Origin: a virus
Lineage: Duplodnaviria > Caudoviricetes
Length of the DNA stretch: 64,000 nucleotides
IMG/VR virus record: IMGVR_UViG_3300025372_000001
Reading direction: 5' to 3' (one strand)
Made by a program: the position numbers and the translations under genes. Shown here in pieces: positions 4,911 to 51,552 of this stretch. Position 1 is the first letter of the stretch. Every line of letters starts with the position of its first letter. The notes under the pieces were generated by a model that made no database searches, was not told the origin of the DNA, and worked only from the letters and a program-made list of their open reading frames with translations.

Positions 4911-5002
4911 AGCAGGGTAGAGAAACAGTTGATCTCGTCGGGTTCATATTCCGAAGGCTACTCAAAAGCGCATAATTGGTGCAACACCAGCCCCTGCAAC
5001 CA
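4911..5002 (+). tRNA. tRNA-Met(CAT), initiator-like, atypical with 20-nt variable region
   Basis: AGCAGGG/CCCTGCA-A-CCA acceptor with 1:72 mismatch; GAGA/TCTC D stem; TCGGG-TTCATAT-TCCGA anticodon arm; weak T arm ATTGG-TGCAACA-CCAGC. Confidence 0.75.
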
Positions 5003-6831: not shown

Positions 6832-7443
6832 ATGAAGTTTAAAGATTTCTTTAACGAAAGAGAATTATTAGCAGAATATAAAGTTAATATAAGTAATGGA
6901 GCAGAATGGTCCAGGTTAATTCCTAAACAGTTAGACAATATTAGTAAATTGATTGGGCTTGAGCTTAATTCTAAATTTCCTTGGTTTATTTTTAATATTG
7001 ACGGACAAGAATATATTTGTGGTTATATTACCATTAATCATAATTTTACTTTCTTTAATTTGACTCAAGCAATAGAAGCGAGGGAAATATCCTTAGCCGA
7101 TCTTTCAGTATTATCTAAAAATAGTATAATTAAATTTATTAATACTATTTGTTCTATTTTAGAATGGTTAAGCCGAAAGAACATTAATAAATTTGTTTTT
7201 CAACATGACGATAAAAAACGAACAGATTTATATTTGAAATTCTTAGAAAAGAGTTTACCTTCATTTCTACCTGAGTTTAAGGTAATGAAGATGGATAAAA
7301 GAATTCTTTTATATAGGCCATTAGGAGATGATTTAAGATTAGATGAATCCTTTAAAGGTGAAATATTTAGACGAGACGAAGAAAGAGGATTAAGTATGTT
7401 TAGAAACTTTAAACCTTATACTTTTCAAAAATACAATTCATGA
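6832..7443 (+). CDS. Hypothetical protein, late-promoter-associated
   Basis: 203 aa; TAAATA at 6821; N-terminus MKFKDFFNE. Confidence 0.75.
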   Translation: MKFKDFFNERELLAEYKVNISNGAEWSRLIPKQLDNISKLIGLELNSKFPWFIFNIDGQEYICGYITINHNFTFFNLTQAIEAREISLADLSVLSKNSIIKFINTICSILEWLSRKNINKFVFQHDDKKRTDLYLKFLEKSLPSFLPEFKVMKMDKRILLYRPLGDDLRLDESFKGEIFRRDEERGLSMFRNFKPYTFQKYNS

Positions 7444-14048: not shown

Positions 14049-14122
14049 GACGGTGTAGTTTATTGGTAAAACAGTCCCCTTTCACGGGACTGAACCGAGT
14101 TCGATTCTCGGCTCCGTCGCCA
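14049..14122 (+). tRNA. tRNA-Glu(TTC)
   Basis: Complete cloverleaf: GTCCC-CTTTCAC-GGGAC anticodon arm, CCGAG-TTCGATT-CTCGG T arm, G73, encoded CCA. Confidence 0.95.
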
Positions 14123-15755: not shown

Positions 15756-16490
15756 ATGAACTTCACAGAACATTTCCTTTTACACGAAAGACAACATTTT
15801 ATTAAACTTGCTAAACTTACTGAAATTATCATTTCTAAGTTAGAAGAGAAAATTCGTCAGAAGAAAAACGGTGTTCGTTCAGGAACAACTTTCACTATTC
15901 CTATTGGAAAATTTTATGACTTAGATATTAAGTTTTATAAAGGATATTCTAGGCGAACCCATGCACAAAGAAAAGAACATGCATGGGGAGATACTAATGT
16001 TCAAGCCATTTATTATCCCGAAACCACCGAAACCAATGGAACAATTGAAATTTATTTCAATCCTGCAAAATCAGGAGAATATTATTATAAAGATAAAAAA
16101 TTTGAAGACATTATAGATGGTTCTCTTCCTAAATTCATCAAAGATGCATTAAGACATGAAATTTCTCATGCATACGAAGATATAGTTAAAAACGTATCAA
16201 AATATAAAGAAAATGATTATTCCGTAACAAATGATTATTACAATCAAGATGAAGAATTAAATGCAAATCTAAGTCAATTCCTTAATTCTGAATTATCCGT
16301 TAATGCAGATATTATGTATAAAATTTCCGAAGGAGATATTAATGGAGCAGTAAATGCATATATCAGAAAACTTAAAACTTCTGAATTCATTAAACATGTT
16401 ACTCCGCAAAATAAAATTTGGATCATTAAAACCATTTATACTTTTGTAACAGGTTTAGTTGAACAAAGCAAAGCCAAATTACCTTCTTAA
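15756..16490 (+). CDS. Late protein with HExxH zinc-metalloprotease motif
   Basis: TAAATA 15745-15750; LRHEISHAYE. Confidence 0.65.
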   Translation: MNFTEHFLLHERQHFIKLAKLTEIIISKLEEKIRQKKNGVRSGTTFTIPIGKFYDLDIKFYKGYSRRTHAQRKEHAWGDTNVQAIYYPETTETNGTIEIYFNPAKSGEYYYKDKKFEDIIDGSLPKFIKDALRHEISHAYEDIVKNVSKYKENDYSVTNDYYNQDEELNANLSQFLNSELSVNADIMYKISEGDINGAVNAYIRKLKTSEFIKHVTPQNKIWIIKTIYTFVTGLVEQSKAKLPS

Positions 16491-40794: not shown

Positions 40795-40823
40795 TTGACT
40801 TAACTCTACTTTTGAAGTAAACT
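40795..40823 (+). promoter_or_regulatory. sigma70-type promoter for DUF2828 gene
   Basis: TTGACT-17-TAAACT, ATG 10 nt later. Confidence 0.65.
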
Positions 40824-40833
40824 CCTGACTACT

Positions 40834-42552
40834 ATGTTCAATACAAAGAAAACCCAACTATTCGTTCCTCCTGCAAAGACTCCAAAATTTAAGTCTGTTG
40901 CAGAAATTACCTCATCTCCTTCAGCAAAAACTCCTTTGCCTATTTTTGTACAATCTGCTCAAAAGAAATCATTTGAAATTCTATCTGGCAACGGAGCCTT
41001 GAAGTACTCTTCAACTGGTAATGAAGGAGTAAATCAATTCGCTAAAGTAGGATCATATAAAAAGCCTCGGCCTTTTAACGAAATTGAAAAAGATTGTGAA
41101 CTTCTTTGGGCAGAAGACCCTCTTAATTCTGTTAAATTTATTCATTATCTTCGCACTATCACTCGAAAAGTTCAACTCATTGATGGTTCTGTAACTGCTG
41201 AACCTCAAAAGGGAGGAGAACTTAAACACGAAGCAATCATGCGTATGATTTGGCTTTTCACTAAAAGCCCCGACACCTTTTGGAAGAATATTGGCTGGTT
41301 TATTGCTCTTGGTTCTTGGCACGACATCTTTACCATGTTGCAATATGATCTGGTTTATAATGGATGGGAAAGTCGTGTTTTAGATTGGAACAAGATGGGA
41401 AACGTTATTCTGGTTGGTCTTGCTGATTCTCATACCTCTGAACTGGTTAAGAAGTACCTTCCACAAATTAAAGCTAGGTCTGATTGTAAGACGGTCGAAA
41501 GTCAAGCTAATACTACAATTGGAAAGTGGATTTGTTCTCTTCTGTTTGGTCCAAAGGAAACATCTTATAATTATAAGACTTATCGTAAACTTAAATCAGG
41601 CGGTACTGCCCATCAGTGGCAACAATTGATTTCTCAAAAGAAGTTTGATCAAATTGATTTTGGTGCAATTCATGGACGAGCATTACATCTACTTGTTCGT
41701 AGTAAGTTCCTTAAGAATCAGAATTTATCAGATAAGTTTGCTACATGGGTCAAGAAACCGGATACAGTAGTAAGATATACTGGTTTCGTTCATGAATTAT
41801 TCACTAATATTCCTACTGCATTATCTGGAATGGCAGCACATGTTCGGGATACCGTGAATAAACAATTTGATACTCTTGTTGCTAAGGGGAAAAGTGAAAC
41901 AAAAGAAGATTCTTGTACTTGGCTACCTGTGCTAGACACATCTGGCTCAATGGGAGCACAATGTACAGGAACTAATGCTTCTTGTTTAACTGTTGCTAAG
42001 TCACTGGCATTATATTTCTCAGAATTCTTGACTGGAAAGTTTATGAATTCATTTGTTGAATTTAATACAAAGGCAAAGATGCATACGTGGCAAGGTGCTA
42101 CTCCAATTGAAAAATGGTATAATAATCGTTGTTCTCATGTAGGAAGTACTAATTTCCAAAGTGTAATTGATTTGTACGTTGATTTAAAGAATCAAGGAAT
42201 TGAAGAAGCAGAGTTTCCTACAGGAATTTTAGCAATTTCCGATTCTGAATTTAATCCTACATCTTTAGGTAAAACTAATGTGGAAGTGGCAAGGGCCAAA
42301 CTTCGTCAAGCCGGTTTTTCTGATACTTTTGTAGATAAGTTCCAGATTGTTCTTTGGAATTTACAAAGTGGATATTATGGTGCAAGTACTGGGAAGAAGT
42401 TTGAAACTGGGGCAACCGAGAAAGGTACTTATTATTTTGGGGGTTTCAATGGTTCAGTTATTTCGTTCTTAACTAATCATGAAGTTAAGACACCTGCTCA
42501 ATTGTTCTTACAAGCATTAGATCAGCAAGTTTTAAATTATATTGAATTGTAA
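40834..42552 (+). CDS. DUF2828-type protein with C-terminal vWA domain (TROVE/Ro60-like architecture)
   Basis: Helical N-term (YSSTGN, GSWHD, KKYLP) plus MIDAS-like VLDTSGSM, STNFQSVID, ISDSEFN, IVLWNL. Confidence 0.75.
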   Translation: MFNTKKTQLFVPPAKTPKFKSVAEITSSPSAKTPLPIFVQSAQKKSFEILSGNGALKYSSTGNEGVNQFAKVGSYKKPRPFNEIEKDCELLWAEDPLNSVKFIHYLRTITRKVQLIDGSVTAEPQKGGELKHEAIMRMIWLFTKSPDTFWKNIGWFIALGSWHDIFTMLQYDLVYNGWESRVLDWNKMGNVILVGLADSHTSELVKKYLPQIKARSDCKTVESQANTTIGKWICSLLFGPKETSYNYKTYRKLKSGGTAHQWQQLISQKKFDQIDFGAIHGRALHLLVRSKFLKNQNLSDKFATWVKKPDTVVRYTGFVHELFTNIPTALSGMAAHVRDTVNKQFDTLVAKGKSETKEDSCTWLPVLDTSGSMGAQCTGTNASCLTVAKSLALYFSEFLTGKFMNSFVEFNTKAKMHTWQGATPIEKWYNNRCSHVGSTNFQSVIDLYVDLKNQGIEEAEFPTGILAISDSEFNPTSLGKTNVEVARAKLRQAGFSDTFVDKFQIVLWNLQSGYYGASTGKKFETGATEKGTYYFGGFNGSVISFLTNHEVKTPAQLFLQALDQQVLNYIEL

Positions 42553-42567
42553 TAAGTTAAAGTTTAA

Positions 42568-42594
42568 ACTTTCCTACGAGGTACGTAGGAAAGT
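42568..42594. other. Perfect 11-bp hairpin between the DUF2828 gene and the RNA-array promoter
   Basis: ACTTTCCTACG-AGGTA-CGTAGGAAAGT; no U-tract on + strand. Confidence 0.6.
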
Positions 42595-42605
42595 GAAGAA
42601 AAGAG

Positions 42606-42634
42606 TTGACAATGATAGTATGATGGGTTAAGTT
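42606..42634 (+). promoter_or_regulatory. sigma70-type promoter for ncRNA array
   Basis: TTGACA-17-TAAGTT. Confidence 0.75.
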
Positions 42635-42640
42635 AGTATC

Positions 42641-43056
42641 AAGACAAGAGTTCTTACAGCAAATTATAAATTCTGCTTTATAGAAAACAAAAGAACTCTG
42701 AAAAAGAGACGCACAGCAAACCAATTTACCTTTGTATTCGGCACAAACAAGTAAACGTCTCTTGAACAAGAAATCAAACTGCAAAACAAAAATTTATTGG
42801 CAAAATAAAACAAACGATTTCTGATAAGAAGACAGTCCCGCAAATATAACAAAAAATCTATGTTCAAACAGAACCGAGAGCGTTCGATTCGCTCAACTTT
42901 ATAACTTGGTGTTTGGTAAAGGTCAAAAAGTTAGTCTTCTGAAAAGGTTTTATACTGCAAATTAAAAAGCATTTCAAGCCGTTGGTCGAAGGTTCAAGTC
43001 CTTCCTCTCTATTTTAGAGAGTAGCTCAGTTGGTAGAGCAACGTAAACAAAACCTG
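42641..43056 (+). ncRNA. Array of five tandem Y-RNA-like cassettes
   Basis: Five units, each a 7-bp closing stem followed by C(A/T/C)GCAAA: 42647-42699, 42705-42762, 42769-42822, 42827-42940, 42945-43055. Confidence 0.7.
42978..43043 (+). ncRNA. Circularly permuted tRNA-like module (YrlA-like) inside cassette 5
   Basis: T arm GAAGG-TTCAAGT-CCTTC, acceptor hairpin CTCTCTA-TTT-TAGAGAG, D arm GCTC-AGTTGGTA-GAGC, flanked by CGT/ACG. Confidence 0.8.
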
Positions 43057-43064
43057 TTAAAACG

Positions 43065-43094
43065 AAAACCGACAAGTAAAGTTGTCGGTTTTTT
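43065..43094 (+). terminator. Intrinsic terminator ending the ncRNA array
   Basis: AAAACCGACAA-GTAAAG-TTGTCGGTTTTTT. Confidence 0.9.
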
Positions 43095-43167
43095 GTTGTC
43101 GAAAAAGTGGAAACAGGATGACGAAAGTGTTACAGTATCAGTCACCTGTGACTAAATAAACAAACAG

Positions 43168-45417
43168 ATGACGAATAACTCTAATATGGAAATACTTGTT
43201 AAAAAAAGGGACGGAAGAACAGAAAAATTTGATGCGGAGAAAGCTAATAGGATTATTAAATGGGCATGTGAAGGAGTGCGAGATGTCGAAGAAGATACCA
43301 TTGGTTTAGCATTTCATACTAATATCAAAAATGGTATTTCTACTAAACAAATTCATAGAGGCTTAATCGAAGCAACTGTTTCTTTAATTACAGAGAATAC
43401 TCCTAATTATGAAATTGTTGCTGCAAATCTTCTTAATTATGAATTGAGAAAACATGTATGGGGAGGAACAGAACCCCCTAACTTTCTGACATTTATTAAA
43501 AATAATGTTAAACATAAAAGATATACTGATGAAATTTTAGAATGGTTTTCTGAAAAAGAAATCAACGATTTTGGAGAATATATTGATCATGATAGAGATT
43601 TTCTATTCAAATATTCAGGATTATCACAAGTTATTGACAAATATCTCGTTAAGAATGTAATTGATAAAACTGTATTCGAGACTCCTAATTTTGCTTATAT
43701 GCTTATTGCAATGACTCTCTTTCATAAAGAGAAAGAGATGATTAAAGAAGCATATGATGCATTTTCGACACATAAAATTTCTCTGCCTACACCTGTTTTT
43801 GCAGGTGTTAGAACTAATTTAAAATCATTTGCAAGTTGTTGTCTGTTAGATGTAGGAGATAGTATTCCTGAGATTACAACTGCATTTGAAGTGATTGCGA
43901 AAGCCACGGCTAAAAGATATGGGATTGGCGTTAACATGACTAAAATGCGGCCCATTGGTGCTCCAATTAAAGGAGGAGAGAATGCTCATACTGGTAAAGT
44001 AGGATTTCTTAGAATTATTCAAGATACTATCAAAGCATGGCTTCAAAGTTCAACCCGCTCAGGCGCAGCAACAGTGAATCTACCTATTTGGGATTATGAA
44101 ATCGAAGAAATCGTTCAATTAAAAGACCCCATGCGTCCCCCTGAAAATCGGGTAGGAGACATTGATTATTGTGTTGCATTCAGTAAAATATTCTATGATC
44201 GATATAAAAATAATGGAGTAATTACCTTATTTAACCCTCATGAGGTTCCCGAATTAGAACAAACGTATGGTTTACCTGAATTCGATGAACTTTATATCCG
44301 AGCAGAGAATAATCCTAAAATTAAAATGAAAAAAACGGTAAAGGCTCGCGAGTTTTTCACTTTATTTAATAAGTTTCGTGTTGAAACTGGTAGATTATAC
44401 ATTCTTAATATTGATCATGCCAATACTCATAGCTCTTTCTTGGAAAGAGTAGGAATGGGAAATCTTTGCCTTGAGGTTACTCACCCGACAGTTCCCATGC
44501 AACACCTGAACGATCCAGAAGGATTGATGGGTATTTGTATTCTCTGTGCAGTCAATCCTATTAATATTAAGACAGACGAAGAATTATATAATATTTGTAA
44601 GATTTCAGTTAAAATGTTAGATCATTTAATTGATTATCAAGATTATTTTTGTGAACCGGCTGAACGATTTGCTACAAAATATCGCTCATTAGGAATAGGT
44701 ATTACTAACTTTGCTGCATGGCTAGCTAAAAAAGGTTTGAAATATTCTTCGGAAGAAGCAAGAGAAGAATCCCATACCTTCTTTGAAAAGTTTCAATTCT
44801 TTTTATTGAAGGCATCTAACGAATTAGCAAAAGAAAAAGGTAAATGTGAATATTTTGATAAAACCAAATATTCCAAGGGTATTTTACCGATTGACACTTA
44901 TGTAAAAGAAATCGATAATTTTATTCCTAATAATTTACAAATGGATTGGGAATGGTTGAGAAGAGGAATTAAAGAACACGGTTTACGACATTCCACCTTA
45001 ACGGCATATATGCCGTGTGAGGCCAGTAGTTTATGTACTAATTCAACCAATGGTATTGAGCGTCCTCGTTCTAAATTTTTGGTCAAGAGTAACAAAAGCA
45101 AAGATTTCCCTATTATTATTCCTAATCATAAACGTTGGAATTATGAATATGCTTTTGAAAAATCTGATAATACGGATCATCTTAAAATGATGGCGATTAT
45201 TCAGAAATTCTGTGATATGTCCATTTCAACTAATCTTTATTATAATTATTCTTTATATCCAGATGGTAAAATACCTGCTATTACTATTTTGAAGGATATG
45301 GCAAATGCTCATAAATGGGGTATTAAGACGATTTATTATACTAATTCAGACGATGGCAACCAACATAATCTTTCTGATGTGTCTAGTAGTTGCAGTAGTG
45401 GTGCTTGCGCAATTTAA
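43168..45417 (+). CDS. nrdA: Class Ia ribonucleotide reductase alpha subunit with ATP cone
   Basis: VKKRDG ATP cone; SLPTP; FASCCL; NLCLEV; C-terminal CSSGACAI. Confidence 0.95.
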   Translation: MTNNSNMEILVKKRDGRTEKFDAEKANRIIKWACEGVRDVEEDTIGLAFHTNIKNGISTKQIHRGLIEATVSLITENTPNYEIVAANLLNYELRKHVWGGTEPPNFLTFIKNNVKHKRYTDEILEWFSEKEINDFGEYIDHDRDFLFKYSGLSQVIDKYLVKNVIDKTVFETPNFAYMLIAMTLFHKEKEMIKEAYDAFSTHKISLPTPVFAGVRTNLKSFASCCLLDVGDSIPEITTAFEVIAKATAKRYGIGVNMTKMRPIGAPIKGGENAHTGKVGFLRIIQDTIKAWLQSSTRSGAATVNLPIWDYEIEEIVQLKDPMRPPENRVGDIDYCVAFSKIFYDRYKNNGVITLFNPHEVPELEQTYGLPEFDELYIRAENNPKIKMKKTVKAREFFTLFNKFRVETGRLYILNIDHANTHSSFLERVGMGNLCLEVTHPTVPMQHLNDPEGLMGICILCAVNPINIKTDEELYNICKISVKMLDHLIDYQDYFCEPAERFATKYRSLGIGITNFAAWLAKKGLKYSSEEAREESHTFFEKFQFFLLKASNELAKEKGKCEYFDKTKYSKGILPIDTYVKEIDNFIPNNLQMDWEWLRRGIKEHGLRHSTLTAYMPCEASSLCTNSTNGIERPRSKFLVKSNKSKDFPIIIPNHKRWNYEYAFEKSDNTDHLKMMAIIQKFCDMSISTNLYYNYSLYPDGKIPAITILKDMANAHKWGIKTIYYTNSDDGNQHNLSDVSSSCSSGACAI

Positions 45418-49217: not shown

Positions 49218-50129
49218 ATGCTAAAAGAACTAAATAAAACTGAGTCGGGAGCCGTGATTTGCAGATTTCAATGTCATGTGCTTCATGCTGCACATATCGA
49301 CCTAATCAACACTGTCTTGGCTAAACATAGTCGAGTATTTGTTTTTCTAGGTTGTTCTCCTCTTCGTAATACTCCTAGAGCACCTTTAGATTTCAAACAT
49401 AGAAAGGCTATGTTGGAAGAACAATTTGGTGATAAGCTAGAAATTCATCCTATCCATGATAATCGTAGTGATGAAGTTTGGAGTAAAAATCTAGATCGAG
49501 AAATTATTCGTCTTCTTCCTCCTGGGCAAAGTACTACTCTTTATGGTTCCCGTGATTCATTCATTGGACATTATAAAGGTAAATTTCCCACTTGTGAACT
49601 TGAATCCGAATCCTTTATTTCTGCTTCACAAGTAAGAAAAGAAATTATTACTAATTATCCTTCTTCTAAAGATTTTCGAGCAGGAATGATTGCAGCAACG
49701 GGGCAACATTATCCAACAGCATATCAAACCGTAGATGTTGCCGTAGTTAATGAAACAAATGATAAAGTTCTATTGGTTAAGAAACCGGGAGAAGATAAAT
49801 GGCGTTTCATTGGAGGTTTCAGTGATCCATCGTCTAATTCTCTTGAAGATGATGCAAAACGTGAAGTAATGGAAGAAACAGGAGTGGAAATTTCTGAACC
49901 GGTTTATCTAGGTAGTTCCTTAATTAAAGATTGGAGGTACCGTAGTTGTACAAATAAGATAAAAACCGCATTATTCATGGCAACATATAAATCAGGAACA
50001 CCAGAAGGAGCAGATGATGTAGAAGCTGCAAAATGGTTTAATTTAAATGATTTAAACGAAAGTAATGTTGTGGAAGAACATCATGTTCTCCTTAACTTAT
50101 TCTTTAAAAAGGTTAAGGTGAAGGCGTAA
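49218..50129 (+). CDS. Bifunctional NMN adenylyltransferase / Nudix ADP-ribose pyrophosphatase (NadM-Nudix, NatV-like)
   Basis: RFQCHVLHAAH nucleotidyltransferase motif; Nudix box GGF..P...LEDDAKREVMEETG. Confidence 0.9.
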   Translation: MLKELNKTESGAVICRFQCHVLHAAHIDLINTVLAKHSRVFVFLGCSPLRNTPRAPLDFKHRKAMLEEQFGDKLEIHPIHDNRSDEVWSKNLDREIIRLLPPGQSTTLYGSRDSFIGHYKGKFPTCELESESFISASQVRKEIITNYPSSKDFRAGMIAATGQHYPTAYQTVDVAVVNETNDKVLLVKKPGEDKWRFIGGFSDPSSNSLEDDAKREVMEETGVEISEPVYLGSSLIKDWRYRSCTNKIKTALFMATYKSGTPEGADDVEAAKWFNLNDLNESNVVEEHHVLLNLFFKKVKVKA

Positions 50130-50160
50130 CCAATCAATAACATATATAGAAAATAATATA

Positions 50161-51552
50161 ATGAAAAAAGGTAATTTAATTCTGGCATGTGATTTATATA
50201 AAGTAGTTCATTGGCGACAAGTTCCAAAAAAAATTTCTTATATGCACTCTTATATTGAGGCAAGAGGAACAGAACTACCTAATGTAAATTATGTTCGTCC
50301 TTTTGGCATTCAGGGATTTATTAAAGATTATTTAGAAGGTGTTGTTATTGAACAATGGATGATTGACGAAGCAAAGGAAATTCTAGGGGAAGTATTTCAA
50401 ACTCATGAATACTTCAATGAAAAAGGATTTAGCGAAATTATTCGTCAATATAATGGGCGTTTACCTATTACCATTAAAGCCGTAGAAGAAGGTAAGAAAG
50501 TAGGATTGAAAAATGTACTGGTTACGGTAGAAGCATGGGGCGAGTTTGCATGGTTAGCCACATGGATTGAAACTATGCTGCTTAGGGCAGTTTGGTACGG
50601 CACTGCGGTATGTACTTTTAGTAGTGCATTGAAAGATATTGAACGTAAATATGCAAATCTCTGTGGATGTCCCATGAATCCATTCTTTATTTGTGACTTC
50701 GGTGGTCGCTCAGTTTCTAGCCACGAATCGGCAGGTATTGGTGGAGCAGCACATTTAGTTAATTATCTAGGCTCTGATACTGTTGAAGGTATTGTTTGGG
50801 CAAAACGTAATTACGGTCCTACTGCGACAGGTTATAGTGTGTACGCTTCGGAACACTCAACTAGTACTATTTACGGTAGGGAACATGAAATTGATGCATA
50901 TCGTCATTTCTTAAATGACGCACCAATGGATAAGATTGTCTCTATTGTAACTGATTCTTATAGCCATGAAAATGCTGTTCGTAATATTCTTGGAAAAGAA
51001 TTGAAAGAAGTTATTTTAGCAGGACATGCTAAAACTGTTATTCGTGGAGATTCTGGTGATCCACTTGATGTATCGCTTAAAACTTTGCAATGGTTGTGGG
51101 AAGATTTTTCGGGCGAAATCAATCCTCGTGGATTTAAAGTTCTTAATCCTAAAGTGCAATTACTTTGGGGTGACGGAGTAGATATAAACTCTTACGATGC
51201 TATTTTAAATTACATTACTTCTAATGGTTTTAGTTCTGAAAATATGTTTTTTGGAATGGGTGGTGAGCTTTTACAGAAAGCAAATCGTGATCGTTTTAAA
51301 TTCGCTTGCAAACTATCTCATGCTATTGTAGATGGTGTTCCAACGGACATCTTTAAAGACCCTGAAGGCGATCATTCTAAACGTTCTAAAGCAGGTATCC
51401 TTAAACTTATTTATGAAAATGGACAATATCAAACAGTTCAAGCTCATGAACGACCTGACCTTAAAGATGAATTAGAAGTAGTCTTTAAAGATGGTTATCT
51501 AATGAAAGAACTTACCTTTGAACAAATTCGCCAAAATGCAGCCAATACTTAA
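50161..51552 (+). CDS. nadV: Nicotinamide phosphoribosyltransferase (NAMPT)
   Basis: CDLYKVVH, DFGGRSVS, GSDT, ASEHST, IRGDSGD, GDG, FGMGG. Confidence 0.9.
   Translation: MKKGNLILACDLYKVVHWRQVPKKISYMHSYIEARGTELPNVNYVRPFGIQGFIKDYLEGVVIEQWMIDEAKEILGEVFQTHEYFNEKGFSEIIRQYNGRLPITIKAVEEGKKVGLKNVLVTVEAWGEFAWLATWIETMLLRAVWYGTAVCTFSSALKDIERKYANLCGCPMNPFFICDFGGRSVSSHESAGIGGAAHLVNYLGSDTVEGIVWAKRNYGPTATGYSVYASEHSTSTIYGREHEIDAYRHFLNDAPMDKIVSIVTDSYSHENAVRNILGKELKEVILAGHAKTVIRGDSGDPLDVSLKTLQWLWEDFSGEINPRGFKVLNPKVQLLWGDGVDINSYDAILNYITSNGFSSENMFFGMGGELLQKANRDRFKFACKLSHAIVDGVPTDIFKDPEGDHSKRSKAGILKLIYENGQYQTVQAHERPDLKDELEVVFKDGYLMKELTFEQIRQNAANT

What the first reader, a model, noticed from the sequence alone, without database searches (positions are those of the whole stretch)
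42606..43094. Self-contained operon of five tandem Y-RNA-like cassettes next to a Ro60-like gene
Seen: a sigma70 promoter (42606-42634) and a strong terminator (43065-43094) bracket ~415 nt with no credible ORF. It splits into five back-to-back units: 7-bp strand, 2-4 nt, C(A/T/C)GCAAA, variable A-rich interior, exact complement of the strand, usually G. Stems are AGAGTTC/GAACTCT, AGAGACG/CGTCTCT, AGAAATC/GATTTCT, AGAAGAC/GTCTTCT and AGGTTTT/AAAACCT. All differ in sequence yet all pair, which amounts to covariation within the array. Known: Y RNAs have a terminal stem with a conserved Ro60-binding element and a variable effector loop, and bacterial Y RNA genes lie beside rsr. Inference: a polycistronic phage array processed into five small RNAs that share a protein-binding handle (stem + CWGCAAA) for the adjacent DUF2828 protein and carry different effector modules. 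This may be an undescribed phage RNP system for RNA decay, tRNA-nuclease decoying or anti-defence.
Basis: partly seen in the sequence, partly recalled or inferred. Interest (0 to 1): 0.95.

Follow-up and report, generated by a model that had tools for sequence, protein, structure and literature searches.

The report
Phage Ro60-like protein, five partner RNAs
A freshwater phage carries, right after a gene for a ring-shaped protein that folds like the RNA-binding autoantigen Ro60, a small self-contained operon of five structured RNAs sharing one "handle" (a closing stem plus a CAGCAA-type motif). The same protein-plus-RNA pairing recurs beside this protein family in phages of very different bacteria, and I found no published description of it.

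Summary
Window 42606-43094 holds a promoter, five back-to-back units and a terminator. Each unit is a 7-bp stem, 2-4 nt, C(A/T/C)GCAAA, a variable body, then the complement of the stem followed by G or T.

- **RNA conservation.** A covariance model built from short units finds 181 matches in 80 related viral loci, all on the strand of the protein gene. The stems are 99.8% paired, with 300 double-sided changes.
- **Location.** In three whole genomes of cultured phages, matches lie only beside the gene.
- **Protein.** The adjacent 572-aa protein (Pfam DUF7788/DUF2828) is predicted to fold like Ro60 (Z 13-17.7 over 400-440 residues) but has no TROVE sequence match.
- **tRNA-like bodies.** Unit 5 is a permuted tRNA mimic like YrlA (46.4 bits, below Rfam's cut-off of 69). 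Unit 4 carries a T arm.
- **Link to experiment.** Homologues include E. coli phage Bas63 gp130, shown experimentally to counter the Ppl defence. I found four unannotated units beside that gene.

Best reading: a Y-RNA-like ribonucleoprotein system built on a different protein family and a different RNA handle. Binding, processing and function are inferred, not shown. No RNA data exist for this phage.

This scan has noted the same pairing on many other genomes. I found no published description. The short units also resemble Dictyostelium Class I RNAs, below Rfam's threshold.

The parts
40795..40823 (+). Promoter-like site of the protein gene (TTGACT, 17 nt, TAAACT)
   Evidence: Consensus scan, 9 of 12 matches. 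Consensus match only.
40834..42552 (+). Gene for a 572-aa Ro60-like protein: helical ring plus a vWA domain with a DTSGS MIDAS motif. Pfam DUF7788/DUF2828, PHROG 850 'RNA-binding protein'.
   Evidence: Pfam DUF7788 at 37.5 bits (cut-off 27.1); DUF2828 at 22.8 bits (below 29). phrog_850 at 1e-33. AF2 model has pLDDT 81.8 and pTM 0.82. The top PDB matches are all Ro60: Foldseek E 2e-7 and VIA-align Z 13-17.7 over 400-440 residues. D368, T369, S370 and S372 are invariant or nearly so in 24 homologues.
42606..42634 (+). Promoter of the RNA operon (TTGACA, 17 nt, TAAGTT)
   Evidence: Read from the sequence. Identical in L086. The same layout stands before the arrays of L001 and KP2025. The -10 is weak, so the scan did not list it.
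42647..42700 (+). Unit 1: short unit, stem AGAGTTC/GAACTCT, linker and motif TTA-CAGCAAA, small inner hairpin, 3' G
   Evidence: R1 53.5 bits, but it is in the seed. Rfam Dicty_Class_I 33.9 bits, E 0.0011, below the cut-off of 41.5. Stem present in the MFE fold. Absent from the close relative L086.
42705..42764 (+). Unit 2: short unit, stem AGAGACG/CGTCTCT, linker and motif CA-CAGCAAA, inner hairpin
   Evidence: R1 24.9 bits, E 0.0087, not in the seed. Identical in L086.
42769..42823 (+). Unit 3: short unit, stem AGAAATC/GATTTCT, linker and motif AAA-CTGCAAA
   Evidence: R1 45.9 bits, in the seed. In L086 the handle is identical while the interior has diverged.
42827..42941 (+). Unit 4: long unit, stem AGAAGAC/GTCTTCT, motif CCGCAAA, body with a tRNA T-arm (42878-42894) and a conserved YTTGGTG...GG segment
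   Evidence: Orthologue in L001 7173-7285 has the stem swapped to AGAGCA/TGCTCT over a conserved body. T arm covaries in 11 units of this type and between the window and L086. The rest of the body is not resolved.
42945..43056 (+). Unit 5: long unit, stem AGGTTTT/AAAACCT, motif CTGCAAA. The body is a permuted tRNA mimic: T arm 42988-43004, closed acceptor-like hairpin 43005-43021, D arm about 43022-43040.
   Evidence: Rfam YrlA 46.4 bits, E 2.6e-8, below the cut-off of 69. RNAalifold on 18 units of this type gives a 5-bp T arm, an 8-bp hairpin and a 4-bp D arm, with 12 of 17 pairs showing compensatory changes.
43065..43094 (+). Intrinsic terminator (11-12 bp hairpin, then a T run)
   Evidence: Read from the sequence. 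Hairpin present in the MFE fold. Not listed by the simple scan. L086 has a different terminator hairpin at the end of its array.

Best explanation
Window 42606-43094 is a separately transcribed operon of five small non-coding RNAs. They belong to a widespread family that travels with DUF2828/DUF7788 proteins, which are structural look-alikes of Ro60.

Each RNA has a handle. It consists of a 7-bp terminal stem whose two outermost pairs are nearly always A-U and G-C, a 2-4 nt linker, a single-stranded C(A/U/C)GCAA(A) motif, an A-rich tract before the 3' strand, and a 3' CU-G end. Each RNA also has a variable body: a small hairpin in units 1-3, a T-arm body in unit 4, and a complete permuted tRNA mimic of the YrlA type in unit 5.

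Inferred mechanism:
1. The roughly 450-nt transcript is cut in the 4-6 nt spacers (most often GAUA in relatives) into single units.
2. The adjacent ring-shaped protein binds the handle.
3. The bodies bring tRNA-binding or RNA-decay enzymes of the host to the particle, or decoy them. Canonical Y RNAs tether Ro60 to PNPase in the same way.
4. The likely pay-off is control of RNA turnover or counter-defence during infection.

Shown: sequence anatomy, covariation, co-occurrence with the gene, and the predicted protein fold. Inferred: transcription, processing, binding and function.
For: RNA anatomy and covariation:
- All five stems pair and all differ.
- R1 finds 181 matches with E at or below 0.01 in 80 viral loci, all on the gene strand.
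- On 144 distinct sequences the stem is 99.8% paired, with 300 double-sided changes. Versions with the 3' partner slid by 1-3 columns pair at only 31-49%.
- In the test not selected for pairing, 381 of 613 CAGCAA sites are closed by a helix, against 84 expected.

Link to the protein gene:
- Units lie beside the gene in the following phages. Leptolyngbya phage Lbo-JY46: 5 units. Klebsiella phage KP2025: its own promoter plus 5 units, two of them YrlA-like. Listeria phage P100: 2 model matches and a third CAGCAA site upstream of the gene. Felixounaviruses allfine and Bas63: 4 units among the tRNA genes. Mycobacteriophage Whirlwind: 3 CAGCAA sites in the gap after the gene.
- Protein identity to the window's protein falls to 23-26% in these phages.
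- Whole-record scans of three phage genomes find units only next to the gene.
- In a subclade of relatives a unit-like element overlaps the gene's own start codon. It combines AG-ATGTT, ACAGCAA at codons 3-5, and RAYATCUG 48-66 nt downstream. Twelve of 14 loci with AG before the ATG have the 3' strand, against 1 of 19 without it, whose single complement (L079) has no motif or AUCUG end. This would fit the protein recognising the handle and regulating itself.

Protein fold:
- Full-length Ro60 structures top both structure searches. They include Thermus phage Ro60 and Deinococcus Rsr.

Modularity:
- The 82%-identical relative L086 lacks unit 1, keeps the handles, changes the bodies with compensatory substitutions, and has an extra sixth YrlA-like unit.

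tRNA mimicry:
- 75 of 123 long units contain a T-loop motif, against 3 of 170 short ones. Twenty of 23 units with both arms have the T arm before the D arm, the YrlA order.

Function lead from the literature:
- Bas63 gp130 counters the Ppl defence (PMC11482910). I checked that bas63_0130 is a homologue, with E 4e-19 to the window's protein.
- Canonical phage Ro60 binds adjacent Y-like RNAs and host PNPase (PMC12135203).
Against: - There is no expression, processing or binding data for this phage or for any member of the RNA family. No RNA run was listed.
- In PMC11482910, gp130 alone restored plaquing on Ppl hosts, whether expressed from a plasmid or from the T7 genome. The phage RNAs are therefore not needed for that phenotype.
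- The handle is not the canonical Ro60-binding helix. The protein has no TROVE sequence match and no PDB sequence match.
- The window's own gene lacks the start-codon element.
- Units 4 and 5 are not picked up by model R1 and were assigned by pattern.
- Many of the 80 loci are related to each other, so counts of covarying cells overstate the number of independent events.
Confidence: 0.72

Rival explanations
1. The units are stand-alone tRNA-mimic decoys or sponges for host tRNA-cleaving or tRNA-modifying enzymes or ribonucleases. They act without the neighbouring protein and are merely co-located with it in the phage's tRNA/RNA region.
For: Many long units carry T arms or whole tRNA-like bodies. 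In relatives the arrays sit in tRNA clusters and next to tmRNA genes. gp130 works against Ppl without the phage RNAs (PMC11482910).
Against: The conserved part of every unit is the handle, not the tRNA-like body, and three of the five units here have no tRNA-like part. The handle follows the protein gene across host phyla and is found nowhere else in three whole phage genomes. A handle-like element overlaps the gene's start codon in a subclade. In this window no tRNA gene lies in or near the operon.
Confidence: 0.12
2. The stem plus CAGCAA element is a processing or punctuation signal for a nuclease that matures polycistronic tRNA/RNA transcripts. It is not a ligand of the Ro60-like protein.
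For: The spacers are regular, with GAUA in 22 of 61 back-to-back junctions. In Felixounaviruses the units are interleaved with tRNA genes. Some units enclose a full tRNA.
Against: Here the operon contains nothing except the units, so nothing needs punctuating. A punctuation signal would not need a conserved single-stranded motif plus conserved body types. The linkage to one protein family is left unexplained.
Confidence: 0.08
3. The region is a long structured 5' leader or attenuator that controls the downstream ribonucleotide reductase genes (43168 onward).
For: It lies directly upstream of nrdA on the same strand and ends in a terminator-like hairpin. The same order, protein gene then gap then RNR, is kept in close relatives.
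Against: In more distant relatives the arrays are followed by unrelated genes, by tRNAs or by a reverse-strand ORF, or they lie upstream of the protein gene. Unit number changes between close relatives. None of the units matches a riboswitch or leader family.
Confidence: 0.04

Closest known systems
Ro60 (Rsr, TROVE + vWA) with Y RNAs: bacterial Rsr-YrlA/YrlB/Yrn1 (Chen et al. 2014, PMC4201824) and Thermus phage phiLo Ro60 with Yrl1/Yrl2 (PMC12135203)
   Same: A ring of helical repeats closed by a vWA domain (Z 13-17.7 to these very structures). Small RNA genes lie beside the protein gene. Each RNA has a terminal stem with a conserved element and a variable effector part. At least one RNA per locus is a permuted tRNA mimic with a T arm, a closed acceptor and a D arm.
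   Different: The protein has no TROVE (PF05731) sequence match and belongs to DUF7788/DUF2828. The conserved RNA element is a single-stranded ACAGCAA next to the stem, not the bulged helix with GNCGAA. The RNAs come in arrays of 2-9, most of them short and without any tRNA-like part. YrlA scores stay below Rfam's cut-off (46.4 against 69).
Bas63 (Felixounavirus) gp130, a counter of the Ppl defence (PhageMaP preprint, PMC11482910)
   Same: Same protein family: bas63_0130 aligns to the window's protein over 379 residues at 26% identity, E 4e-19. Four units with the same handle lie just downstream, one of them YrlA-like.
   Different: In Bas63 the units are scattered among tRNA genes rather than forming their own operon. 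The authors guessed that some annotated tRNA genes might be Y RNAs, but the units I see are unannotated intergenic elements. The anti-Ppl effect was obtained with the protein alone.
Class I RNAs of Dictyostelia (Rfam RF01414; Kjellin et al. 2021, PMC7919456)
   Same: Length of about 55-65 nt. A short stem joins the 5' and 3' ends. The 5' stem strand begins with a conserved G. ACAGCAA (within CCUUACAGCAA) lies directly after the 5' strand. An A-rich tract precedes the 3' strand. The 3' end is CUG(U). The Rfam model hits units specifically: u1 at 33.9 bits, and 10 hits in 7 loci, all on units.
   Different: All scores are below the gathering score of 41.5. Class I RNAs are eukaryotic, probably Pol III products with their own promoter element, and are reported as unique to Dictyostelia. 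Their known direct binder is an RRM protein. Whether Dictyostelia encode a DUF2828/DUF7788 protein could not be tested here.

Membership tests
Ro60 / TROVE protein family | TROVE domain (PF05731) recognisable by sequence | tested here: not met
   Pfam gives only DUF7788 (37.5 bits) and DUF2828 (22.8 bits, below cut-off). A profile search of PDB sequences finds no Ro60.
Ro60 / TROVE protein family | Helical-repeat ring closed by a C-terminal vWA domain with a MIDAS motif | tested here: met
   In the AF2 model (pLDDT 81.8), the ten best PDB matches are all Ro60 proteins, Z 13-17.7, with 396-442 residues aligned across residues 42-570. vWA-only matches come next, at Z 11.3 or lower. DTSGS is conserved.
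Ro60 / TROVE protein family | Binds a Y RNA through a conserved bulged helix | not testable with these tools
   No binding assay or protein-RNA modelling is available. The conserved RNA element here is different: a stem plus single-stranded ACAGCAA.
YrlA (Rfam RF02553) | Score at or above the gathering score of 69 bits | tested here: not met
   Unit 5 scores 46.4 bits, E 2.6e-8. KP2025 units score 40.1 and 34.3 bits.
YrlA (Rfam RF02553) | Permuted tRNA-like domain: T arm, closed acceptor-like hairpin, D arm | tested here: met
   Present in unit 5. In 18 units of this type, 12 of 17 predicted pairs show compensatory changes.
YrlA (Rfam RF02553) | Encoded next to a TROVE-type rsr gene | tested here: not met
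   The neighbour is a DUF7788/DUF2828 protein.
Dictyostelium Class I RNA (Rfam RF01414) | Score at or above the gathering score of 41.5 bits | tested here: not met
   Unit 1 scores 33.9, unit 4 20.3 and unit 3 19.7 bits. The best score in relatives is 37.3 bits.
Dictyostelium Class I RNA (Rfam RF01414) | Short stem joining the ends, a conserved 5' G, the 11-nt motif CCUUACAGCAA after the 5' strand, and a 3' CUGU | tested here: inconclusive
   Unit 1 has CUUACAGCAA and a 3' CUG. Units 2-5 keep only C-N-GCAA(A). The consensus of 300 related units is (U/A)(U/A)ACAGCAA(A/U), with a G at the second stem position and CU-G at the 3' end.
DUF7788 / DUF2828 protein family (PHROG 850) | Pfam or PHROG profile match over the full length | tested here: met
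   DUF7788 is above its cut-off. phrog_850 scores 1e-33 over residues 45-564. There are 1728 homologues.
Handle RNAs that accompany DUF2828/DUF7788 genes (not a published family; defined here by model R1) | Terminal 7-bp stem, C(A/U)GCAA after a 2-4 nt linker, same strand as the protein gene and within a few kb of it | tested here: met
   All five units meet this by pattern. By model R1, u1 and u3 are in the seed and u2 matches at 24.9 bits, E 0.0087. The array starts 54 nt after the gene's stop codon.

The most novel reading that the evidence does not exclude
The handle (end-joining stem, ACAGCAA, A-rich tract, 3' CUG) may be the recognition element of the whole DUF2828/DUF7788 protein family, which also has many eukaryotic members. 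On this reading the enigmatic Class I RNAs of Dictyostelia, thought to be unique to social amoebae, would be the eukaryotic branch of the same RNA family and would partner with a DUF2828/DUF7788-type protein there. My evidence does not exclude this, but it rests only on sub-threshold Rfam matches and shared architecture. An earlier report of this scan that drew the same parallel was later given low odds for its bold reading.
Probability: 0.1. Interest if true: 0.9.

Novelty: new variant of a known kind. Interest (0 to 1): 0.78.

Why it matters
Ro60-Y RNA particles are a classic but narrow paradigm: one protein family, TROVE, and one kind of RNA handle. This locus belongs to what looks like a second and much larger branch. 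A different protein family with the same predicted fold has hundreds of homologues in cultured phages of E. coli, Salmonella, Klebsiella, Vibrio, Listeria, Enterococcus, Staphylococcus, Bacillus, Campylobacter and Mycobacterium. It is paired with its own family of small RNAs, which are unannotated in every record I examined.

One member of the protein family already has an anti-defence phenotype (Bas63 gp130 against Ppl), and cultured E. coli phages carry the RNAs. The biology is therefore directly testable.

The arrays also show cassette-like gain and loss of tRNA-mimicking bodies on a constant handle. This suggests a modular way for phages to present different RNA baits on one protein platform.

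Tried and rejected
- **Nucleotide search of cultured phages** with the gene plus array found only a 70-nt tRNA-like hit in Vibrio phage BONAISHI. No close cultured relative exists.
- **PDB sequence search** with the family profile found nothing relevant.
- **Expression data.** The only holders of this DNA are freshwater and lake metagenomes read as DNA, and no RNA run was listed, so I did not lay reads. No whole genome is held for the window.
- **Rfam at gathering thresholds** on 15 related loci gave only tRNAs and tmRNAs, with no family covering the units.
- **The genome-contig scan** returned only ten MAG contigs, probably binned phage DNA, so no host could be named.
- **The Dictyostelium link.** Avesson et al. 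2011 is not held, and nothing is written about the pulled-down protein DDB_G0281243. Searches for DUF2828, DUF7788 and UCP015417 found no relevant paper. The AlphaFold cluster search hides organisms. Whether Dictyostelia have a DUF2828/DUF7788 protein therefore stays open.
- **A weak unit-like match at window 16251-16291** (R1 16 bits, E 0.62) lies inside a 264-aa ORF. I treated it as chance.
- **Rejected readings.** Protein-coding: only short frames, broken by indels in L086. CRISPR-like or simple tandem repeat: the units share only the handle, not their sequence.
Full report
**1. What is in the sequence**

Window 42553-43167 is the gap between a 572-aa ORF (40834-42552, + strand) and the large subunit of ribonucleotide reductase (43168-45417). 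Read directly, the gap contains the following.

- A promoter-like site: TTGACA at 42606-42611, 17 nt, then TAAGTT at 42629-42634.
- Five units placed back to back:
  - u1: 42647-42699, stem AGAGTTC/GAACTCT.
  - u2: 42705-42762, stem AGAGACG/CGTCTCT.
  - u3: 42769-42822, stem AGAAATC/GATTTCT.
  - u4: 42827-42940, stem AGAAGAC/GTCTTCT.
  - u5: 42945-43055, stem AGGTTTT/AAAACCT.
- A terminator hairpin at 43065-43092 followed by a T run.

In every unit the 5' strand is followed, after 2-4 nt, by CAGCAAA, CTGCAAA or CCGCAAA. The 3' strand is followed by G, except in u2 where it is T then G. The spacers between units are 4-6 nt: GAAAA, TGAACA, GATA and GAAA.

An unconstrained fold of the 460 nt finds the five closing stems and the terminator. 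ARAGORN finds no tRNA gene here. Only 30-75 aa frames overlap the region, and single-base indels in a close relative break them.

The simple promoter scan did not list the promoter, because its -10 is weak. The same layout precedes the arrays of three relatives, and one of them (L086) has the identical sequence.

**2. Is it more than chance?**

I built a covariance model, R1, from 23 short units: u1 and u3 from the window and 21 from related loci, with the 7-bp stem as the only structure. Scanning the whole 64-kb window with filters off gives three matches with E below 0.01. They are u1, u3 and u2, and u2 was not in the seed. The next match has E 0.62.

I also ran a test that does not select for pairing. 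On the gene strand of 80 related viral loci there are 613 CAGCAA sites. Of these, 381 are closed by a 7-bp helix within 170 nt, against 84 expected from shuffled downstream sequence. On the opposite strand there are 243 sites and 25 are closed, against 34.5 expected.

**3. Conservation and covariation**

The protein has 1728 homologues in the large protein collection. Most come from metagenomic contigs of up to about 290 kb.

Eighty viral contigs carrying a homologue (42-66% identity) were fetched with flanks. R1 finds 181 matches in them with E at or below 0.01, and every one lies on the strand of the protein gene. On 144 distinct matched sequences the stem is 99.8% paired, with 300 cells changed on both sides. 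When the 3' partner is slid by 1-3 columns, pairing falls to 31-49%. The two outermost pairs are nearly fixed (A-U in 136 of 144, G-C in 123 of 144), while the inner five vary freely. That alignment was fitted to the model, so the independent test carries more weight.

The consensus of about 300 units is (U)A, then A-G plus five variable stem bases, then (U/A)(U/A)A-CAGCAA-(A/U), then the body, then an A-rich tract ending in C, then the 3' strand ending CU, then G(A/U). Back-to-back units are most often separated by GAUA.

**4. A close relative shows cassette behaviour**

L086 is a 262-kb contig whose protein is 82% identical, with the same gene order of CoaE, cytidylyltransferase-like gene, protein gene, gap and RNR. 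Aligned to the window, it differs as follows.

- The promoter is identical.
- u1 is missing.
- u2 is identical.
- u3 keeps its handle but has a diverged interior.
- The T arm of u4 carries compensatory changes (GAGCG/CGCTC becomes GAGGG/CCCTC).
- The acceptor-like hairpin of u5 is replaced by a different hairpin.
- A sixth unit of the YrlA type is added before a different terminator.

In L001 (63% identical) the array is split by a reverse-strand ORF with a GIY-YIG-like N-terminus, read by eye. It resumes behind a second promoter. There the orthologue of u4 has a different stem (AGAGCA/TGCTCT) around an almost unchanged body.

Units therefore behave as independent modules on a constant handle.

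**5. The bodies**

Of 123 distinct long units (80 nt or more), 75 contain a T-loop motif, against 3 of 170 short units. Twenty-three contain both T-arm and D-arm motifs. In 20 of these the T arm comes first, which is the YrlA order, and in 3 the order is that of a normal tRNA.

RNAalifold on 18 units of the u5 type predicts a 5-bp T arm, an 8-bp closed acceptor-like hairpin with a loop of variable length, and a 4-bp D arm. Twelve of the 17 pairs show compensatory changes.

Rfam's YrlA model matches u5 end to end at 46.4 bits, E 2.6e-8. That is below the gathering score of 69. For the u4 type only the T arm is supported by covariation.

**6. The protein**

Pfam gives DUF7788 above its cut-off and DUF2828 below it, and no TROVE domain. 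PHROG 850, 'RNA-binding protein', matches at 1e-33.

An AlphaFold2 model built with 24 homologues has pLDDT 81.8 and pTM 0.82. The N-terminal tail, residues 12-33, is disordered. Foldseek against the PDB puts eight Ro60 entries on top, with E from 2e-7 to 5e-5. The second-look aligner gives Z 13-17.7 over 396-442 residues for Xenopus, human, Deinococcus and Thermus-phage Ro60. vWA-only matches follow at Z 11.3 or lower. The MIDAS motif DTSGS is conserved.

The protein therefore has the predicted Ro60 architecture but is not a member of the TROVE family by sequence.

**7. Cultured phages carry the same pair**

tblastn finds the family in 411 to 711 phage records, depending on the query. I inspected six.

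- **Leptolyngbya phage Lbo-JY46:** five units directly after the gene.
- **Klebsiella phage KP2025:** its own promoter and five units after the gene, two of them YrlA-like at 40.1 and 34.3 bits.
- **Listeria phage P100:** two model matches and a third CAGCAA site upstream of the gene.
- **Felixounaviruses allfine and Bas63:** four units between tRNA genes just downstream.
- **Mycobacteriophage Whirlwind:** three CAGCAA sites in the gap after the gene.

The proteins of these phages are only 23-42% identical to the window's. Whole-record scans of Lbo-JY46, KP2025 and P100 (125-150 kb each) find R1 matches only next to the gene. None of the units is annotated in these records. In Bas63, two small reverse ORFs (bas63_0137 and bas63_0138) are annotated over part of the stretch holding the last two units.

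**8. What the literature says**

Canonical Ro60 with adjacent Y-like RNAs is known in bacteria, in some mycobacteriophages (PMC4201824) and in Thermus phage phiLo. In phiLo the protein binds two neighbouring Y-like RNAs and host PNPase (PMC12135203).

A 2024 preprint (PMC11482910) found that Bas63 gp130 counters the Ppl defence. It noted gp130's structural likeness to Ro60 and guessed that some neighbouring 'tRNA genes' might be Y RNAs. I verified that bas63_0130 is a family member. The same paper shows that the protein alone, from a plasmid or from T7, is enough against Ppl.

The homologue in mycobacteriophage LeBron is moderately toxic when overexpressed (PMC13148394).

I found no paper that describes the handle RNAs or links DUF2828 to an RNA. 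This scan, however, has reported the same protein-RNA pairing on many other genomes. Within the scan this window is one more instance. It stands out for its clean stand-alone operon.

**9. The resemblance to Dictyostelium Class I RNAs**

The best Rfam match for the short units is RF01414. u1 scores 33.9 bits (E 0.0011), and u4 and u3 score about 20. In seven related loci there are ten hits with E at or below 1, all on units and all on the gene strand, the best at 37.3 bits. All are below the gathering score of 41.5.

The published description of Class I RNAs matches the phage consensus closely: 42-65 nt, a short stem joining the ends, a conserved 5' G, CCUUACAGCAA after the 5' strand, and a 3' CUGU (PMC7919456). 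Those RNAs are reported as unique to Dictyostelia. Their known direct binder is an RRM protein. One pulled-down protein, DDB_G0281243, has no known function (bioRxiv 10.1101/2020.04.05.026054).

I could not test whether Dictyostelia encode a DUF2828/DUF7788 protein. I treat the resemblance as a lead with low odds. An earlier report of this scan that drew the same parallel was later given 6 in 100 for its bold reading.

**10. A further hint that the protein reads the handle**

In 14 of 33 loci with a complete N-terminus, the start codon is preceded by AG. In 12 of those 14 the sequence RAYATCUG lies 48-66 nt downstream and can pair with AG-AUGUU. In 9 of them codons 3-5 read ACAGCAA. Among the 19 loci without the AG, none has the motif, and only one (L079) has any downstream complement to its own start region, without the AUCUG end.

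R1 scores several of these start regions at 30-44 bits. The 3' strand falls in the variable, disordered N-terminal tail, so protein constraint alone is an unlikely cause. This looks like a handle mimic over the ribosome-binding region, which would allow the protein to regulate its own translation. The window's own gene does not have it.

**11. Verdict**

The most likely mechanism is a Y-RNA-like ribonucleoprotein. The Ro60-like protein binds the shared handle, and the variable bodies, two of them tRNA mimics, engage host RNA enzymes or defence factors. Transcription, processing, binding and function are all inferred.

Relative to published knowledge this is a new variant of the Ro60/Y-RNA kind: a different protein family, a different handle, and an array organisation.

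Noticed in passing
L007 3997-4059, L008 3997-4059, L044 3997-4056, L020 3997-4062, L026 3997-4062, L040 3997-4059 (relatives; absent at window 40828-40900): A unit-like element overlaps the start codon of the Ro60-like gene in a subclade. It combines AG-AUGUU, ACAGCAA at codons 3-5, and RAYAUCUG 48-66 nt downstream. Twelve of 14 loci with AG before the ATG have the 3' strand, against 1 of 19 without (L079, with no motif or AUCUG end). It is a candidate site for translational self-regulation.
   Followed up: partly
L001 6520-7095 (reverse strand), with a second promoter at about 7130-7160: A reverse-strand ORF whose N-terminus looks like a GIY-YIG homing endonuclease (read by eye, no profile search) splits the RNA array. 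The third unit before it is truncated and ends in a terminator, and the array resumes behind a new promoter.
   Followed up: no
L086 5027-5700: The closest relative with DNA available (82% protein identity) lacks unit 1 and has an extra sixth YrlA-like unit, so whole units are gained and lost between near relatives.
   Followed up: yes
L043 2935-3050, L020 6989-7102, L022 3787-3901, L033 6235-6358: Some units enclose a tRNA-like body in normal order (D arm before T arm). For three of them (L043, L020, L033) the body passes Rfam's tRNA gathering score (33-53 bits). A handle can therefore be wrapped around an ordinary tRNA shape.
   Followed up: partly
L037 6922-7281, L040 6806-7208; tRNA clusters in L013, L033, L082, L083: In relatives the arrays lie next to phage tmRNA genes and large tRNA clusters. 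In the window the array stands alone, and the only tRNA genes are at 4911-5002 and 14049-14122.
   Followed up: partly
L100 2949-3223 (Bas63, MZ501086 82748-83022): Two small reverse-strand ORFs, bas63_0137 and bas63_0138, are annotated in the stretch that holds the last two handle units. They are probably spurious calls over RNA genes.
   Followed up: no
window 49218-51552: A NUDIX protein and a nicotinamide phosphoribosyltransferase (NAMPT) lie side by side, which looks like an NAD salvage pair. Klebsiella phage KP2025 also has a NAMPT gene about 3 kb upstream of its Ro60-like gene.
   Followed up: no
window 16251-16291: A weak unit-like match (AGAATTA ... TAATTCT with GCAAA; R1 16 bits, E 0.62) lies inside a 264-aa ORF. 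It is probably chance.
   Followed up: partly
L044 5777-5836: A sub-threshold match to Rfam 'freshwater-1 RNA' (31.2 bits against a cut-off of 72) lies between the Ro60-like gene and the first unit.
   Followed up: no
L082 4857-5288 (KP2025, PP919962 140087-140518): The record annotates a 432-nt 'tRNA-Arg' that runs into the start of the DUF2828 coding sequence. This is either an annotation artefact or an interrupted tRNA gene.
   Followed up: no
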